From the NCBI RefSeq assembly GCF_009914755.1, contig NC_060935.1: a stretch of DNA of 64,000 bases; one strand, given 5' to 3'. The translations under genes and the position numbers were made by a program. Each line of letters begins with the position of its first letter. Position 1 is the stretch's first letter. Below, in pieces: positions 13,668-54,800 of this stretch. The notes beneath the pieces are model-generated. The model did no database searches and was not told the DNA's origin. It worked only from the letters and a program-made list of their open reading frames with translations. The stretch comes from the human T2T-CHM13v2.0 reference genome, Homo sapiens.

Positions 13668-14599
13668 TTAAGAGACTAATTTTCTGCAAAAGGTTCTCCT
13701 CAGGGCAACTTTGACATCTTTATTCCTCAGGCTGTAGATTAATGGGTTAAACATGGGCACCACAGCAGTACAAAAAATGGAGGACACTTTCCCCTGGTCC
13801 AGGGGTAGAATAGAAGGTGGTTTGAGGTACATGAAAGCACCTGACCCAAAGAAAAGCGATACCACAATTATGTGGGAACTGCAGGTACTGAAGGCTTTAG
13901 ACCTGCCCTCTGTGGAACTAATGTGGAGAATGCTGGAAAGAATAAAACCATAAGAGAGAAAAATGGTGACAATCGGCACCCCAATGCCAACGGTCACAAT
14001 AATAAAAACCACCAGCAAATTTATGTAAGAGCTGTTGCAGGAGAGCTCAAGGAGAGGAAGGATGTCACACATATAGTGATTGACAAGGTTGTCTCCACAA
14101 AAGGACATAAACATTATGTTTCCCATATGAGCCACAGCCCCAAAATCCCCATCCCATAGACACCCAGTAAAAGGAGCAAACACATCTGGGGAGACATGGT
14201 GACCGTGTACAACAGTGGGTTACAGATGCCCACGTAGCGGTCATACGCCATCGCTGATAGAATATAGGATTCAGAAAAGACAAAGAAACAGAAGAAAAAA
14301 AGCTGAGTCATACACCCTGCATAGGAAATGATGTTCTCTGAGACAAAGCTCATCAGCATTTTAGGGGCGAGGGTAGTGGAATAACTAAAATCTATGAAGG
14401 ACAAGTTGAAGGGGAAAAAGTACATGGGGATATGCAGGCGAGAGTTGAGCCCTATCAGGATTATCAAGCCCAGGTTCCCCACCACCGTGACCGCGTAGAA
14501 ACCTAGAAACAGGAAGAAGGCGGGGATCTGGAGTCCCGGCTGGTCGGTTAAGCCTGAGAGGATAAACGCTGTCACGGAGGAGGAGTTCTTGGCAGGCAT
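13668..14599 (-). pseudogene. OR8B9P: Olfactory receptor family 8 subfamily B pseudogene (single 1-bp frameshift)
   Basis: ORF 14114-14599 has OR motifs (N-glycosylation [21 protein letters not shown]). ORF 13668-14183 has NHYMCD, KAFSTCSSH and PMFNPLIYSLRN. The frame switches at the A-run 14142-14145, which is one base shorter than in the paralog at 49451-49461. Span of 932 nt = 936 minus one codon minus 1 nt. OR8B subfamily is from resemblance to recalled OR8B8/OR8B12. The exact symbol is from recalled gene order and is less certain than the pseudogene call. Confidence 0.9.
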
Positions 14600-14864
14600 T
14601 CTCCTCTAGGACTGTCTGTGAGAGAAAAAGAAAGAGTCACTCAGAAAGAGAGAAAGGCTACACACACCGGGAGGTTAATGGAAATTAAGGTAGTGGGAGG
14701 GAGAAGAAAAGAAACATTTACTGAGCACTAACTATGGGATAGGCACTGTTCTAAACGCTGTGTGGCGTTACACTCATCCCTGTCTGGGTTACCTGCACAA
14801 AGTCCCAGGGCTATAGAGTTGCCGCAGCAGGAGAGCTCTGCGGTCTGACTCCCCTGGTCTGAGC

Positions 14865-15307: not shown

Positions 15308-15663
15308 CCCCTTCAGCTTGGAGCCATGGTGCTGCTCTCTACTGCCCGTTGCCCATCTCTTTCACGGAAACCCAGTGGCCCTGCTGAAAAGAATGTGACA
15401 ACTTGGAGCCCAGGCCCCTCTGCTTCTGCTTCTCCACCTTGAGAATCCTTATTCTCTTTGAGAATCTTGGTTCTCTTGCAGAGCTGAAGAAAACGATCTC
15501 TGATTGTGACTTTGCCCCAAGGCTTCTGCCCAGCTTCCAGGAATGAGACAGCAGTCTTTCCTAACACCGTGGATAACAGGCGTCTGGAGAGTTTTATTCT
15601 GGAGTACAGACCTCGGAGTGGCTACAGAGCCTCCCTCAGGGCCATTGCCAGAGACCAAGTTCC
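15308..15663 (-). other. Putative non-coding 5'-UTR exon of the first OR8B pseudogene
   Basis: On the minus strand there is an acceptor tttccttttcctcAG (15664-15665) and a donor GTGAGT (15302-15307). The 356-nt segment is conserved with the paralog at 50636-50991. Confidence 0.5.
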
Positions 15664-16889: not shown

Positions 16890-17150
16890 ATTCCTTCAGC
16901 AAATACATATCGAGCATCTACTATGTCCCAGAAACTCTTCTAAGTTCTTAGTTGGGGGAAAAAAAAAAAAGCAAATTCTTGCCCTCATGAAGTTTGCATT
17001 CAAGTGGGAGAAGACAAAAAAAAAAGATATAAATGAAAGAAAAAAAACATGTAAAATCAAAAGTGCTAGGAAAAAAAAAAAGCCAGGGAGAGGGGTAGAA
17101 AAGGAAGGGGCACAGATTTAATTTTAAATAGAGTAATCTGACATTTCAGC
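16890..17150. mobile_element. L2 fragment
   Basis: ttccttcagcaaatacatatcgagcatctactatgtcccag...tgccctcatgaagtttgcattc. Confidence 0.6.
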
Positions 17151-17276
17151 AATGACTCAGAAGAGATTTGAAAAGTGTTTACTTGATAAGATCAGTTACT
17201 CTTCTAAAACATTAGGCACTCATGGCTTAACCAGCAACCCTCCAAGGCATCACATTTTTATCCTGCACTGTAAATG

Positions 17277-18047
17277 CAATATCTTAAGCCAAATTACTGG
17301 CTCTACGGAAGAAAATTATGAAAATAGTAAGAAGATAAAGGGGCAAGAGAACTGTTGAGGATTCAGATAATCACAAGTCACACAATATTGGTTAATGACT
17401 GAGACTGGTATGAAGGCTAAAAAAGCTTTGTGTAGCAACTTGCATTTTATAGCCCTTACTATGGACTTCTATATATTAAAGATGACAGATTTCATAGCCA
17501 AGAAATAAATCTCTATATGGGGAAATTCAAGCTTCAGTTAGCAGACGGGTTATACATGTTTTTAGTCAGAGTTAAAGGCTACAGTCCTCTTGGAGAAGCT
17601 ATGAAATCATAACACAAAGGCAGAAGTCTTCTTCCAGGCAAGTCCACTGCACACAGGCCAGATGTGCACATGTATGAGTGAAGACTTGCTCACCCTCAGC
17701 TCAGTCTCAGGAATGATAATGTCTCATTGGTCAATGTACACTTGGAACTGTCCACGTCCCAGAGTAGTTCTAATGAATCCCAATCCTTGCTCTCAATCCC
17801 ATTATGCACACTTAAGAAATAGAGAAAAACAATTCATTATCAAAAAATTAATAATAATAAAAATTAAAATTAAAATAATGCAAGTTGCTACACAAAGCTT
17901 TTTTAGCCTTCATACCAGTCTCAGTCATTAACCAACATTGTGTGACTTGTGATTATCTGAATCCTCAACAAGGTCTCTCGCCCCTTTATCTTCTTACTAT
18001 TTTCATAATTCTCTTCCTTAGAGCCAATAATTTGGCTTAAGATATTG
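17277..18047. repeat. Inverted repeat, 170/171-bp arms (17277-17446 and 17877-18047) with a 430-bp spacer
   Basis: The right arm is the reverse complement of the left arm, with about 6 substitutions and 1 indel by manual comparison. Confidence 0.95.
17688..17810 (-). promoter_or_regulatory. Putative promoter/first-exon donor of the first OR8B pseudogene
   Basis: Donor GTGAGC (17688-17693, minus strand), homeodomain-type TAATGA at 17771-17776 and a weak O/E-like TCCCAGAG next to it. The block is conserved with 51772-51890. HD plus O/E sites are the established OR promoter motifs. Confidence 0.45.
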
Positions 18048-20570
18048 GGTCTTGAGACCCAAAGGGCAAAGAGGACCTTAGGGGTTCATTTAACATTTAC
18101 TTTCCTTTAGAAGATTTAGAGGGTTCTTGTATTCCTGATGCCACACCAGGAAAGTTCTTCTGAGGTTTTTGTCACTTCAGAGATGGTTTCCATGGGAACT
18201 TCATTTCAAATGCATCAGCGTTTTATTTCAAATGAACCAGGGTTTCTTCAAACCATTTTCACTGTTGATTTACTCCAATATAAGCACAGAGAAGCATAGA
18301 AATAAATATTCTTGCTTAATTTACTTTTGATGCAGAACTGTCCGTTTTTCCAAAGCTTGAATCTCTGTATAATGGATTCTTTGTTCTATTTATTGCTAAC
18401 ATTAACATTATTAAAATATATATGAGACATGGATTATAACATACTCATGTGGTAAGCATATGTACAATGTGCTTTGTGTATATGGCACATGCATTAACCT
18501 TCAAGTGTCTTGTAGACCGTCAAACAGCACAAGGGTGGTGGTAAAGGCAGTATCCTTCACTCCACATAAAAGAAATGTAGGAATAAGCCACAATTTCAAC
18601 AAAAAACACATGAAAGCCTGTCCAGAGAGAAAAGATGGCAGCTGAAATGTCTGCATATGAAATGATTTCAGTTAGGATCTAAGGATGGGCACAAAATTAG
18701 ACGTATCTACCAGAAGTCATGTGGTTTGCAATTATACTTAATGGTATATTAGTCTTCAATATGTGTGTGTGGCATATTAAAATGCTAATAAAGGATGCAA
18801 AAGAAATCGTTGACTTCCTAAAGAGATTTACAGTCTAATAGAGTCATCTCCCATTCTGTCTCTTTATCCTCCTTACCCACTCAATGTTTCAAAATTCCCA
18901 GTGACCAGTTCTCAATCATCTCTGCCTCTTGCTTCTTAAATGTTTGGTCATCTCATCTCATGACTTTGAAAACATTCTCTACATGGTTAGTACCTAAATT
19001 TGCTCTTACCTTTCTGTTAATTCCCTGTCCTGTGTATATGGCCTCTCTAGCAGAATGTTCCAGTATCATGCTCGTTGTCACCCTGAACTCAACAAGTACA
19101 AAGATTAACATATCACCTTTGTCCCCAAAATAGACATCTGTCTAACCTTCCCAGTTTTATTGGAGAGGAAGTAGAGTGTCGTATTAATATGGTGTTACTA
19201 GTCCTGGTTTGTTTGGGATCCTCCACTTTTAGATCTATTGTCCCAGAAAAATTACTAGTAACAATCCTTTTCACTATGAAATCTATTCCACTTAGGTCAC
19301 AAATTGCATGATTTCTGTGTGCGTTCAGAGCATAAACTTTAGGATCTAACCAACTTCTATGATTACTTGCTCTGCTGCTTACTAGGTGTGTGACATTGAA
19401 AATGTTTAACCTCTTCTGAGCTTTAAATTACTTATCTTAAAATGGGGATAATAATCATAAATGTTGCACTTTCTAGTATGTAGAACATGCAACACAGAAG
19501 GTATTAAAAAGTATTAGGTTGCTATTATTATGTTCAAATCTATGCCCGTGGATGAAAGGAATATTTTAAACTGCCATGGTACACAGGATCAGCTAAAACA
19601 GAGAGAGACTTAAGGCAGGAAGATCAGTTAAGGTGGTTCCACAAGCAGTAGAAATAGTAAAGCAAAAACAGAATCAAGTGATGACATCATGAAGAAACAG
19701 GATTTAATATCTCTATGGTTTGGAGAAGGACAGAAAGGAAAAAAAGCACAAGTGAAACCTGACCAAAATTTTAAGATGAGGGAAGTTTGAGTAGGATGGC
19801 AGAAAATGAACAAATAAGGAATGAGGAAGATAAGAAGCTAAATTTCAGTCTACATGACAAAATGCTGCTCGAACCCTTCAAAAGGAATGATAAGTTTTTA
19901 AAAAAACAGCAATGAAGGAGGGAGAAAAGGAGTCAAAATACAAATTAGGGAATCAGCTAAACATAGGTGAACCCAAAAGAATGATGAATTTTTCCAAGCA
20001 GAAATATTTAAAGACAGAATAGTCAAGGATTAAGAACTAAGCCCTTCCAAAAATACCCACAGTTAGAAAACGGGAGAAGGAAATTGACCAATGGGAATGT
20101 CAGAAAAACCAAGTGGAACAACTGAGAGCAAGATTTAGAAACAAACAGACCTGGAGTCAAATTCCAACTCCATAGCTGTATGAATTTGGAAAATTTATTT
20201 AACATCATGGAGACATAGCGTTTCTATCTGAAAACCAGATATAGTAATAACATGCTTGCAGATGTGCATAAGGTATAAAATTTGAGTTTTGTGAATATTC
20301 TTTTAGTATTTCTTGAATTTATGGAATTTACAGAGGCCAAAAAAAGAGAATTTCAAGAGTGAGCATAACTAATATTTCTGTGCATTCAAGAGGATAAAAA
20401 AGAACTGAAAATGACTTTAAGTAACTTGTACCCTTGCAGTCTAATTTTCTTCTTCCATATCACTATTTATCTACACTTTGACCTTAAATGTTTGGAACAA
20501 TTCATCATTGAAGCCATCTTGGCTTGAAATTTCTTTTGTAAAGCACTTTAAGAACAAACTGTATTTTTTA

Positions 20571-50991: not shown

Positions 50992-51771
50992 CTAAGGAAA
51001 AGGAAATGTTTGTTTTCACACTTGATAATGCTCCACGGGGCTTTTAATGACCTAATATTTCATTCGGGTCGCATCGTTTTAAGCACAATTTTTCTTGCTA
51101 CCTTATATTGACAACTTACTGTGTACCAAACACTGTATCTGACCCAGCACCTTCATACAGACACCAAGGATCCAACAACAATGTCCAATTTTACCTCATT
51201 TATTTCTCACAGTACCTTCATAAATCAGACATGTTAATCTCCACTTTAAAAGTGAGAAGCACACGCAGCTAATAGATTCTAGAATCTTGAGTCAAACTCT
51301 GGTCTGTCCAGCTCCAAATGTCACAGGGGCGAGGGACCCTGCTGAGCTTCTTAAGCAATCACAAGACACTTAATGTGTGTAACTGACAACACCCAATTTT
51401 GTCTCCAGACACCAGAGTTGGCTCCTCTAAACATTGTCAAAACCATTTTCAGGAGGGGATCTCATTAATACAGGGACTAATACAGTTTCCTGTGGCAACT
51501 AGCCTTTCACACCCCTAACCAGGGCCTTTTGTGTATTAAGGATGATACATTTCATAGCCAAGAAATAAATCTCTATTTGGGGAAATTAGAGCTTCAGTAT
51601 GCCAACAGGTTAGATATGTTTTTGATCCTGCTTCGATGGCAGAAATATTCTTGGAGAAGTTATAAAATCTTAACACAAAAGCAGAAGTCCATCTTCAGGC
51701 AAGTCCAAGTGAAACCACCGCACACAAGCCTGTGTGTTTATGAGGATGTGCACATATGTCAGTCAAGCCAT

Positions 51772-51890
51772 GCTCACTCTCAGCTCAGTCTCAGCAATGA
51801 GGTTGCCTCATCTGTCGTTATACACTTAGAATTGTCCACACCCCGGAGTGACCCTAATGGATCCCAATCCCTGTCTCAGTCCCACTGCAC
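51772..51890 (-). promoter_or_regulatory. Putative promoter/first-exon donor of the second OR8B pseudogene
   Basis: Donor GTGAGC (51772-51777, minus strand) and TAATGG at 51855-51860. Paralogous to 17688-17810. Confidence 0.4.
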
Positions 51891-54800
51891 AAAAGTTACA
51901 AAGGGAGAAAAATAATTTATTAAACAAAATGTACATGAGTCCATTAAGCAGGCTTTCCTTCAGATCCAAGTGCAAAGAAGACATTGGAGGTTCTCTGGAA
52001 GCTCTATGGGGAATTTTGTCTGTTACTTCAGAGACAGTTGCCATGGCAACTACATTTCCAAATGCATCTTAGACAAGGCTTCTCTAAAGCTGTGTTACCT
52101 GATGACTCACTTCAGTACAAGCAGCAAGCAAAAAAAAAACCTATCTGAAAAAATTTTTTCTTCTTGTATCTATTTCATACTTAAACGATATATTATACAT
52201 GTTACATTACAGAGCATGTGAACATTTACATACAATAAAATATCTTTACATATATGTCTCATGCATGTGTGTTAGCTCTCAGACTTCAGGTAGATCATCA
52301 AGTGGTGACAGTATGGCACGGGGTCAATCACTAAACTTACTAGTTTCCCAACCACAATAAGAAGAAGCACAAACCTGGCCAGAGAGGAGAGACGGCACTT
52401 GAAATAGTCATTTCAATAGCATTCAAATAGCCTTAATTAACTCCTGAGAAAGAAGATAGAATTAAATTCATCTATCACCAGTCATATGGGTCTGCAATGT
52501 CCTTAATGTTAAATTGATTTAATAAGTGTATTTAGCATGTATAGTAATATGTGAGGTCAGGGATACAAAAGGCATTGTTTGTGCCAGAAAGAAATGCATA
52601 GTCTAATAGAAACACGTCCCATATTGGCTCATCTTTCTACTTCTGTCCCTTCATATTTCACATTTACCAGGATTCACTTCTGTGCCTTATTTCCACGCTT
52701 TTTCTGCTTCCTTAAATTCTCAGTGAGTTACTTTGTTTCATGGCTTCAACAAACCCTCTATATGGATGGCTGCCAAATTTGTGTCTTTAGTTCTCAGTTT
52801 CCTGTTAAGCTCCTTTCCTGTGTGTCCCACATTTATTTTGGATATTTCTAAGAGGCTGTTCTCCAATCATCCCTGAACTTGAGTACAAAGATGAGTATAT
52901 GGCTCTTTACCCCAAAAGTAAATGTCCTCTCAACCATTCCCTTTATTTATTTGGCTGTAATCAATGATGAGAAAGTAGAATGTAGAACTTATAAAGTTAA
53001 TCTAAATCCTGGCTTTTCTAGAACCATCCCAGTTTATGCCTATTATCTCAGAAAAATTACTAGTATCTCCCCTTTCATTCTGAAATATGTCCCAGTTGAA
53101 TAAGCATTCAGAGCATGAACTTTGGAATCTGGCAGAACTCAGCTCAAATCTCTGACACTTACAGACTGTGTGATCTTGGGAACTTTGTTTAACCCTTCTA
53201 TGAGTTTCTGGTGTTGTAATGTTAAAATGGGAAAAATACTGGTAATTCAAAGGATTGTTTTAATGAATAAATAATGCACCTTCTGGCACAAAGACACAAA
53301 AAAATCTATTATTATTTATTATTATTTCGTAAATAATTCTTTTAAGTGTATTACTTTTATTTAATTTTCATTAAATAAATAAAATTTACTTATCATCTAT
53401 TAGAGTAGTAACAATTACTATCCCCTTGGATAAAAGTAATTGCAGAATGGGCTAGAACAGGAAGAGACTGAAGGCAGGGAAATCAACTCAGAGACTACAC
53501 AAGAGTAGAAACAGAGAGGATGAACAGTGCCACATGTTATGATATTACGATGAAATGCAAAACAATGTTTGGCATCTCTGTGCTTGGAGAGAGAAAAACA
53601 GAGACGAGGAGACATACATCAAGTTTGATTGCATTTTCAAGCCCAGGAAAACAGGAGCAGAATGACAAGAATGGAGAAATAAGGAGGGAGAAGGGTAAAG
53701 AGCTGAGTTTTAGACAAAAATGTGAAATATTAACAGGACCTCCAAATGACAAGGATCAGAAATAAGTAGAAAACTGGAAATCAGAACTTGGGTAAAGGGA
53801 TCAGATACAAATAGAGGAATCATCTGAGCAGAAGTGGTCATGGAAAAATGGGGAAATAGCCACAAGGAAGAGTGTTTAAAGACAGAATAATCGGGACAAG
53901 GATTGACTCTTTCAAAAACGCCAACAAATAGGTAATGAAAGAAGGACATTGACAAAAGGAAATGTCAAAAAATAAAAAAGCAAATGTAGCAACTGAGAGC
54001 AAGCATTTGAGAAGAAAAATATCTGGAATTAAACCCCAACTGTGTTGCTCATTTCCCAGGTGAACTTGAATAAGTTACTTAACCCAGTTAAGACTCAGCG
54101 ACCCTATCTAAAAAAAAATAGGGATAACAATATCAAATTTGCAGATGTTTGTGAGAATTACATTGTGCCCCAATGAATATTCATTTAGTCAATATTAGTG
54201 GAATTTATAAAACGTCACAGAAGCCAAAGGTGGAGAGAATTTCAAGAGTGAGGAATATATGTTACCAAGAGTTTCATGGGAAGAAAAACTGAAAAATAAG
54301 CTTAAACTAAGTCATTCTCTCGCCTTTCTATTCACTCATTTTTCCGTACCATTCTTACTGTGCTTAGTCTAATAAAATTTTATACTATTCATTGATTATT
54401 TCAAGACTATATTCCATAAGGCCCAACTAGATTAAATACTTCTTCAAGGAAAATTTTAAATCCTATAGCTTCGGGGGTACACTAACATAATCATTATTTA
54501 TCAGATGACGAATACTTTATAGATAATCTTCAAAAAATGATGAATGTAATAAACTTGCATGTAAATATAATGCAATAAAAATCCATATTACAAAAACATA
54601 ATTCTGGGGATTTTCTTAACTACCTGAAATAATTTGCCACATTTTATTCTCATGAAAAAAGTAATATGAGCTACACATAATTAAATTTACTGAAACTAAG
54701 TTAGAAGGCTTCACTGTGTTAACATTGATACTGACATTCATTGACACTGAAATGACAATGATGCCAGAAGATTTCTGTCTGTCAAGGTCAAAGTGTTTGT

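What the first reader, a model, noticed from the sequence alone, without database searches (positions are those of the whole stretch)
17277..18047. Young 170-bp inverted repeat bracketing the OR promoter/first exon: a potentially invertible cassette
Seen: arms 17277-17446 and 17877-18047 are about 96% identical reverse complements of sequence I do not recognise as a repeat. The 430-bp spacer holds the putative exon-1 donor (17688-17693) and the TAATGA site (17771). In the paralog the spacer is in the same orientation (51490-51930) and the right arm is absent. The right arm, preceded by an AT-rich stretch, is therefore the derived copy. Inference: it arose by template-switch inverted duplication. 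The arms could extrude a hairpin/cruciform, homogenise by conversion, or mediate inversion of the promoter/exon 1, which would redirect or silence transcription.
Basis: partly seen in the sequence, partly recalled or inferred. Interest (0 to 1): 0.7.

Follow-up and report, generated by a model that had tools for sequence, protein, structure and literature searches.

The report
Old inverted duplication in odour-receptor promoter
A 171-base piece of DNA sits copied backwards 430 bases from its source, in the likely promoter of a broken but still transcribed odour-receptor gene; it is likely a one-off DNA-repair accident in an ape ancestor rather than a flip switch.

Summary
The repeat is real: 17277-17446 and 17877-18047 match at 164 of 171 columns, and the arm has only these two hits in the genome search. 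Four paralogous OR8 loci lack the right arm and resume right after it, and two of them hold the left arm's homolog in place. The right arm is therefore an inserted inverted copy (net gain about 175-200 bp), with AT-rich filler at one junction and an 8-bp fold-back hairpin at the other. This is the anatomy of the common short inverted-duplication class of structural variant. The spacer is homologous to OR8B8's annotated exon 1, so the copy likely landed about 70 bp upstream of the OR8B9P start site. It is not very young: 4.1% divergence (95% CI 1.6-8.4%), likely older than the human-chimp split. A flip switch has little support. The spacer keeps the ancestral orientation, the longest perfect tract is 59 bp, the 430-bp spacer disfavours cruciforms, and the arms show no significant homogenisation. 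No inversion is listed here in a 41-genome T2T call set. OR8B9P is frameshifted, yet still transcribed in human olfactory epithelium. Rare inversion alleles are not excluded. Ordinary; low interest.

The parts
17277..17446 (+). Left arm: ancestral locus DNA, in the predicted intron 1 of OR8B9P; source of the copy
   Evidence: Homologous in place and orientation to the OR8B12-upstream paralog (16890-17401 aligns, E 6e-10) and weakly to OR8B10P (17339-17399, E 0.014). Carries a ~85-bp deletion against three paralogs near 17402 that the right arm shares
17877..18047 (-). Right arm: inserted inverted copy of the left arm, 164/171 identical
   Evidence: Absent from 4 of 4 paralogous loci, which resume at about 18050; only two hits in G000
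17447..17876 (.). 430-bp spacer in ancestral orientation; holds the predicted exon 1 and proximal promoter
   Evidence: Same orientation as all four paralogs
17850..17876 (+). AT-rich junction filler: (AAT)3 followed by three TAAAA(A)T units, matching the 6 bases next to the left arm's inner end; compatible with repeated priming
   Evidence: Sequence; absent from paralogs; mechanism inferred
18045..18062 (.). 8-bp-stem, 2-nt-loop hairpin straddling the outer junction; gives a possible 3-bp junction microhomology (TTG/CAA)
   Evidence: such hairpins cover 0.48% of bases in the 264 kb; snap-back origin inferred
17694..17779 (-). Predicted exon 1 of OR8B9P
   Evidence: OR8B8's annotated 5' end aligns to 17779 and its 121-bp exon 1 aligns to the spacer; no transcript model covers it in OR8B9P
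17688..17693 (-). Predicted splice donor GTGAGC (also in OR8B10P; OR8B8 uses a nearby, different donor)
17834..17839 (-). Homeodomain-type TAATGA shared with OR8B8 and the OR8Q1P-side paralog, about 12 bp from the insertion point
   Evidence: motif recalled
17771..17776 (+).
17925..17930 (-). TAATGA carried into the promoter by the copied arm
15308..15663 (-). Likely exon 2. HAVANA annotates 15541-15308 as a 'partial' first exon; its 5' end is not at an AG, and an acceptor conserved in OR8B10P lies at 15663
13668..14599 (-). OR8B9P coding region: full length, no in-frame stop, one 1-bp deletion near 14144 (and an in-frame 3-bp gap)
51477..51922 (+). OR8B10P paralog of the spacer, without the right arm

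Best explanation
The right arm is a single inverted copy of nearby DNA inserted into the likely core promoter of OR8B9, likely made by template-switch (fold-back) synthesis during break repair in an ape ancestor, and it is likely fixed and without regulatory function today. Shown: the copy, its direction, a net gain of about 175-200 bp, the absence of a target-site duplication, and the ancestral orientation of the spacer. Inferred steps: a break near 17850; the resected left 3' end primed on its own strand at a TAAAAT microhomology 430 nt back, after some slippage that left the AT filler; it copied 170 nt; it then joined the right end through a 3-bp microhomology that a short snap-back on that end had created (the 8-bp hairpin), losing about 21-25 bp of promoter. 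A replication-fork template switch (FoSTeS/MMBIR) would give the same product. Since then the arms have drifted apart. The gene lost its reading frame by separate lesions but is still transcribed in olfactory epithelium.
For: Right arm absent in 4 of 4 paralogous loci, left arm homolog in place in 2 of 4. Both arms share a locus-specific ~85-bp deletion, so the copy postdates it. Two hits genome-wide; no flanking direct repeats. Junction hairpin with a 0.48% background. Inverted duplications are the commonest non-mobile-element inversion class: 277 events, median 284 bp, mostly 1-15 bp microhomology (PMC12350158 passages). GRCh38-to-T2T offset is 28,671 at the ATGs of both OR8B9P and OR8B10P, on either side of the repeat, so GRCh38 has the same net length across it. 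OR8B9P expression is above zero in 12 of 12 olfactory samples (PMC7055050 supplement 7) and above floor in 4 of 4 epithelia versus floor in 17 control tissues (PMC4982115 Table S7); three samples overlap by name between the two studies.
Against: No primate ortholog without the insertion could be examined, so the age, the exact lost bases and the microhomologies rest on paralogs of 60-75% identity. The OR8B12-upstream paralog also lacks the 21-25 bp, so that loss may be separate. The 430-nt priming distance far exceeds the under-10 to 25 bp typical of SD-MMEJ (PMC5728401). AT-rich filler can arise by later slippage. By eye, 5-6 of the 7 arm differences are derived in the left arm, an asymmetry that is not significant (binomial P 0.13-0.45). 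Expression data do not show which promoter is used.
Confidence: 0.78

Rival explanations
1. The arms act as a substrate for occasional homologous recombination that flips the 430-bp promoter/exon 1, giving a rare or recurrent inversion polymorphism that would switch OR8B9P transcription off.
For: Arms are 96% identical and close together. Recombination on matches under 50 bp is reported for nearby alpha-globin repeats (PMC2583991). A 2026 catalogue includes candidate inversions from 197 bp with repeats from 140 bp (PMC13629690); its table could not be seen. Small inversions are often misaligned by mappers.
Against: The CHM13 spacer has the ancestral orientation. The longest perfect tract is 59 bp, against a 20-fold drop from 232 to 134 bp and a meiotic estimate of 300-500 bp. 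The 24 NAHR inversions of PMC6748972 have repeats of 654 bp to 24.2 kb. No row holds 124513 or 124514 in the 373-region, 41-genome T2T supplement. Any flip would affect a pseudogene only.
Confidence: 0.1
2. The insertion was the first hit that weakened a then-functional OR8B9 promoter in the great-ape ancestor by displacing distal homeodomain and O/E sites about 175 bp; relaxed selection then let the coding region decay separately in each ape.
For: It lands within the 200 bp upstream of the inferred start site, where O/E and homeodomain sites concentrate (PMC3247239). Branch dN/dS is 0.28, so constraint lasted for most of the branch. Chimp shares the human frameshift while orangutan has different lesions, and the mouse, rat and cow orthologs are intact (PMC7160942 supplement). 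The age range overlaps.
Against: OR8B9P is still expressed, in 10 of 12 samples at a level equal to or above intact OR8B12. The proximal TAATGA survives and the copy brings another. Loss of OR genes in apes is common (recalled), so timing alone says little.
Confidence: 0.08
3. The arms are terminal inverted repeats of a DNA transposon or MITE that captured the spacer.
For: Long near-identical inverted ends around a short core look like a MITE.
Against: Two hits in the genome (the tool warns that its search skips common words). No target-site duplication. Left arm and spacer are ancestral locus DNA shared with paralogs. RepeatMasker itself could not be run.
Confidence: 0.01
4. The repeat works as a structural element: a cruciform in promoter DNA, or a long RNA hairpin in a read-through transcript.
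For: As a single strand the 771 nt fold at -208 kcal/mol (DNA) and -353/-391 (RNA), against -32 for the spacer alone. Spaced repeats can pair in long single-stranded DNA in yeast (PMC10164571).
Against: Any 170-bp repeat folds like this on paper. In duplex DNA a spacer increase from 12 to 100 bp cuts repeat-induced recombination 300-fold in yeast. The predicted transcript starts inside the spacer and would carry only one arm. No Rfam match at E up to 1.
Confidence: 0.03

Closest known systems
Short inverted duplications (INVDUP class of structural variants; PMC12350158)
   Same: Local segment of a few hundred bp copied in reverse orientation near its source, with no long homology at the junctions and a replicative or repair origin
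   Different: Those were found as polymorphisms; this one is 4% diverged and likely fixed. It lies in the predicted promoter of an OR pseudogene.
Synthesis-dependent MMEJ / polymerase-theta snap-back insertions (PMC5728401) and FoSTeS/MMBIR
   Same: Inserted DNA forms a new inverted repeat with its template; short fold-back at the junction; small deletion; filler made of junction-adjacent words
   Different: A 170-bp tract primed 430 nt away is far beyond the under-10 to 25 bp primer spacing reported for SD-MMEJ. The size fits MMBIR-type switching better. The enzyme cannot be read from sequence.
Recurrent NAHR inversions that swap promoters or first exons, e.g. HsInv0030 at CTRB1/CTRB2 (PMC6748972)
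   Same: Inverted repeats above 90% identity around a promoter and first exon
   Different: Those repeats are 654 bp to 24 kb and both orientations are observed. Here the arms are 171 bp with a 59-bp perfect tract, one orientation is seen, and the gene is a pseudogene.

Membership tests
Short inverted duplication (INVDUP) | Local segment duplicated in reverse orientation near its source, absent from the ancestral state | tested here: met
   Absent in 4 of 4 paralogous loci; source 430 bp away
Short inverted duplication (INVDUP) | Size of a few hundred bp (median 284) | tested here: met
   171-bp copy plus about 27 bp filler; class size
Short inverted duplication (INVDUP) | Junctions with 1-15 bp microhomology and no long homology | tested here: inconclusive
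   No long homology; 6-bp and 3-bp microhomologies are inferred without a pre-insertion ortholog
Recurrent NAHR inversion | Inverted repeats above 90% identical at both ends | tested here: met
   95.9%
Recurrent NAHR inversion | Repeat length and perfect tract sufficient for efficient recombination (654 bp or more in the validated set; perfect tract above about 134-300 bp) | tested here: not met
   171 bp; longest perfect tract 59 bp. Exceptions with shorter matches are published
Recurrent NAHR inversion | Both orientations observed among haplotypes or species | tested here: inconclusive
   CHM13 ancestral; no row in the 41-genome T2T supplement. PMC12350158 supplement holds no inversion list; PMC11451754 file was cut. 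No haplotype sequences available
DNA transposon / MITE | Dispersed copies | tested here: not met
   2 hits in G000, both at this locus
DNA transposon / MITE | Target-site duplication | tested here: not met
   No direct repeat of 3 bp or more around the whole repeat, or 4 bp or more around the insert
DNA transposon / MITE | Match to a Dfam/Repbase consensus | not testable with these tools
   No repeat library available
SD-MMEJ snap-back insertion | Inverted primer repeats within about 25 bp of the break | tested here: inconclusive
   Fits the 8-bp outer hairpin; does not fit the 430-nt jump
Conversion-maintained palindrome | Arm identity above 99% (PMC8981503, abstract start in search listing) | tested here: not met
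   95.9%; paralog-shared bases survive in one arm only
Cruciform-forming palindrome | Spacer of at most a few tens of bp | tested here: not met
   430 bp; spacer dependence

The most novel reading that the evidence does not exclude
A datable repair accident dropped an inverted intron copy into the working promoter of ape OR8B9, displaced its distal sites, started the gene's decay, and left a 171-bp repeat that still flips the promoter and first exon in rare human alleles, giving a natural on/off test of what an OR promoter needs to be chosen.
Probability: 0.07. Interest if true: 0.5.

Novelty: new member of a known kind. Interest (0 to 1): 0.2.

Why it matters
On the best reading it matters little: it is a well-preserved fossil of a common mutation class. 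A rough scaling from 277 polymorphic events suggests several hundred such fixed copies of this age per genome (assumes neutrality and a recalled SNV diversity). Two modest uses remain. The junctions keep a readable repair signature. The locus also suggests that an OR promoter can stay olfactory-specific after a 175-200 bp insertion about 70 bp upstream of its inferred start. If inverted alleles exist, they would test minimal OR promoter needs and the lower length limit of recombination-mediated inversion. I found no description of this repeat: 'OR8B9P' is in the main text of 2 unrelated papers (listing only), and a combined-term search gave nothing on it (listing only).

Tried and rejected
Transposon termini: rejected. 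Left arm as the derived copy: rejected, since paralogs hold it in place. Conversion between arms: inner 59 bp identical but P 0.05-0.08, and differences persist. Known structured RNA: no Rfam match. Strict O/E patterns (recalled) found no site in OR8B9P 17200-18300, OR8B10P or the OR8Q1P-side paralog, and found sites in OR8B8 and OR8B12-upstream, so I do not claim that an O/E site was destroyed. Inversion catalogues: PMC10150506 supplement, no match (informative but weak for sub-kb events). PMC12350158 supplement, no match but it holds no inversion list, so that negative carries no weight. PMC11451754 supplement, no match in a cut file. PMC13629690 Table S1 was not seen. The OR8 cluster left of chr11:124,376,001 was not examined base by base; the genome-wide DNA searches missed the OR8B8 paralog, so further weak paralogs may exist. 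No primate or other mammalian genome and no repeat library was available.

Full report
OBSERVATION. Self-BLAST of the window finds 17277-17446 against 18047-17877 at 95.9% over 171 columns: six substitutions and one 1-bp indel, with a longest perfect tract of 59 bp at the inner end. The arm has two hits in the whole genome, both here; the tool warns that its search is not exhaustive. In the 264 kb examined (chr11:124,376,001-124,640,000) only three inverted pairs of at least 60 bp and 88% identity lie within 5 kb of each other. The repeat is real. Rfam gives no match.

WHICH ARM IS NEW. The spacer and right flank have four paralogous loci in those 264 kb: OR8B10P (window 51.5 kb), a site upstream of OR8B12, a site near OR8Q1P, and the 5' end of OR8B8. 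All four have the spacer in the same orientation, lack the right arm and resume near 18050. The OR8B12-upstream locus aligns across the left arm in place (E 6e-10) and OR8B10P does so weakly (E 0.014). OR8B8 matches only the inner end, and the fourth locus is interrupted there by an Alu-like stretch (recalled identification). Both arms share a deletion of about 85 bp against three paralogs, so the copy was made after that deletion. Net gain is about 175 bp against the OR8Q1P-side locus and about 200 bp against OR8B12-upstream. Three paralogs have 21-25 bp at the insertion point that OR8B9P lacks; OR8B12-upstream lacks them too, so that loss is not securely tied to the event. There is no target-site duplication.

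JUNCTIONS. The inner junction has about 27 bp of AT-rich filler built of AAT and TAAAA(A)T units, and TAAAAT is the reverse complement of the bases at the left arm's inner end. The outer junction is straddled by an 8-bp-stem hairpin at 18045-18062; hairpins of that kind cover 0.48% of bases in the region, though I looked for the pattern after seeing it. Both fit fold-back priming followed by joining at a 3-bp microhomology, as in the snap-back model (PMC5728401, passages). The 430-nt jump is much longer than that paper's typical primer spacing, so a fork template switch is as likely. These steps are inferred. The product matches the inverted-duplication class: 277 events, median 284 bp, mostly 1-15 bp microhomology (PMC12350158, passages).

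WHERE IT LANDED. OR8B8's annotated 5' end aligns to window 17779, and its 121-bp exon 1 (PMC7055050 supplement 5) covers the spacer. HAVANA's OR8B9P model begins at 15541, tagged partial. Its donor at 15308 and acceptor at 14615 map exactly with an offset of 28,671, its 5' end is not at an AG, and an acceptor conserved in OR8B10P lies at 15663. Sequence just upstream of OR8B8's exon 2 aligns to 15473-15543. I infer three exons as in OR8B8, with exon 1 at about 17779-17694, the left arm in intron 1 and the right arm about 70-270 bp upstream of the start. No transcript directly shows this exon. The TAATGA shared with OR8B8 is the minus-strand one at 17839-17834; it survives, and the copy adds another at 17930-17925. 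O/E and homeodomain sites are enriched in the 200 bp upstream of mouse OR start sites (PMC3247239, passages).

THE GENE. OR8B9P has a full-length coding region at 14599-13668 with one 1-bp deletion near 14144 and no stop; branch dN/dS is 0.28 by a three-point estimate. In PMC7160942's supplement chimp has the same frameshift plus two stops, orangutan has different lesions and reads through the human site, and mouse, rat and cow OR8B9 are intact. The pseudogene is expressed: above zero in 12 of 12 olfactory samples, 1.9-136 normalised counts, against 2.9-16.2 for OR8B12 and non-zero in 4 of 12 for OR8B10P. In PMC4982115 it is above floor in 4 of 4 epithelia and at floor in 17 control tissues. 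Three samples overlap by name between these sets. These counts do not identify the promoter used.

AGE. Arm divergence is 7/171 = 4.1%, 95% CI 1.6-8.4%. With recalled neutral divergences (human-chimp about 1.2%, orangutan about 3%, macaque about 6.5%) the copy likely predates the human-chimp split and dates from the ape era. GRCh38 has the same net length across the interval (offset 28,671 at both flanking ATGs), barring compensating indels. By eye against two paralogs, 5-6 of the 7 differences are derived in the left arm and 1-2 in the right; this is not significant (P 0.13-0.45).

THE SWITCH IDEA. Against it: ancestral orientation in CHM13; a 59-bp perfect tract against a 20-fold drop at 134 bp and a 300-500 bp meiotic estimate (PMC2583991, passages); validated NAHR inversions with repeats of 654 bp or more (PMC6748972, passages); no matching row among 373 regions from 41 genomes on T2T (PMC10150506, supplement search and passages); steep loss of cruciform-driven instability with spacer length in yeast (PMC10164571, passages); no significant homogenisation; and a pseudogene target. 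For it: short close repeats sometimes recombine, a 2026 catalogue tests candidates with repeats from 140 bp (PMC13629690, passages and section 7; its table unseen), and small inversions are easily missed. The supplements of PMC12350158 (no inversion list) and PMC11451754 (cut file, supplement search only) do not settle it. That OR choice does not use DNA rearrangement is recalled, not checked here.

VERDICT. A likely fixed, ape-age inverted duplication in the predicted promoter of a transcribed OR pseudogene: a new member of a common, known mutation class. Origin as a local inverted duplication is well supported. Neutrality and fixation are likely (0.78). Rare inversion alleles (0.10) and a first-hit role in the gene's decay (0.08) stay open until haplotypes and ape genomes are read. 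Interest 0.2.

Noticed in passing
window 14519-14399 and the matching OR8B10P coding stretch near 49830-49710: A 121-bp perfectly identical tract between OR8B9P and OR8B10P coding regions that are 88% identical overall (0 of 10,000 shuffles reach it): likely gene conversion between the two pseudogenes, 35 kb apart.
   Followed up: partly
window 13668-14599: RefSeq's OR8B9P span (13749-14234) covers only about half of a full-length coding region that has a single frameshift.
   Followed up: yes
window 18186-18199; 52037-52050; chr11:124474594-124474607: An X-box-like palindrome (RFX consensus recalled) matches in 3 of 5 paralogous OR8 promoters, with near matches in the other two. RFX is not the usual OR promoter factor.
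   Followed up: partly
chr11:124580.4-124581.0 kb (L009) and 124620.0-124620.4 kb (L008): Promoter/exon-1 homologs about 6.6 kb beyond HAVANA's first exon of OR8B12, and one near OR8Q1P that points away from it with no OR coding region found by tblastn in between: possible true OR8B12 promoter or an orphan promoter.
   Followed up: no
window about 16905-17170: Old dispersed-repeat remnant left of the left arm, with hits on three other chromosomes; looks like an L2 3' end (recalled). It lies outside the arms.
   Followed up: no
chr11:124414884-124422960 (window -81116 to -73040) and window-frame 86436-88860: Two other close inverted pairs in the cluster: 2.2-kb arms at 96.6% that match other dispersed copies (likely L1), and 123-bp arms at 92.7%. 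The 2.2-kb pair between OR8B2 and OR8B3 is a better inversion candidate than the finding.
   Followed up: no
window 17273-17280 and 17440-17447: The left arm is itself bounded by an 8-bp AT-rich inverted word; probably chance.
   Followed up: no
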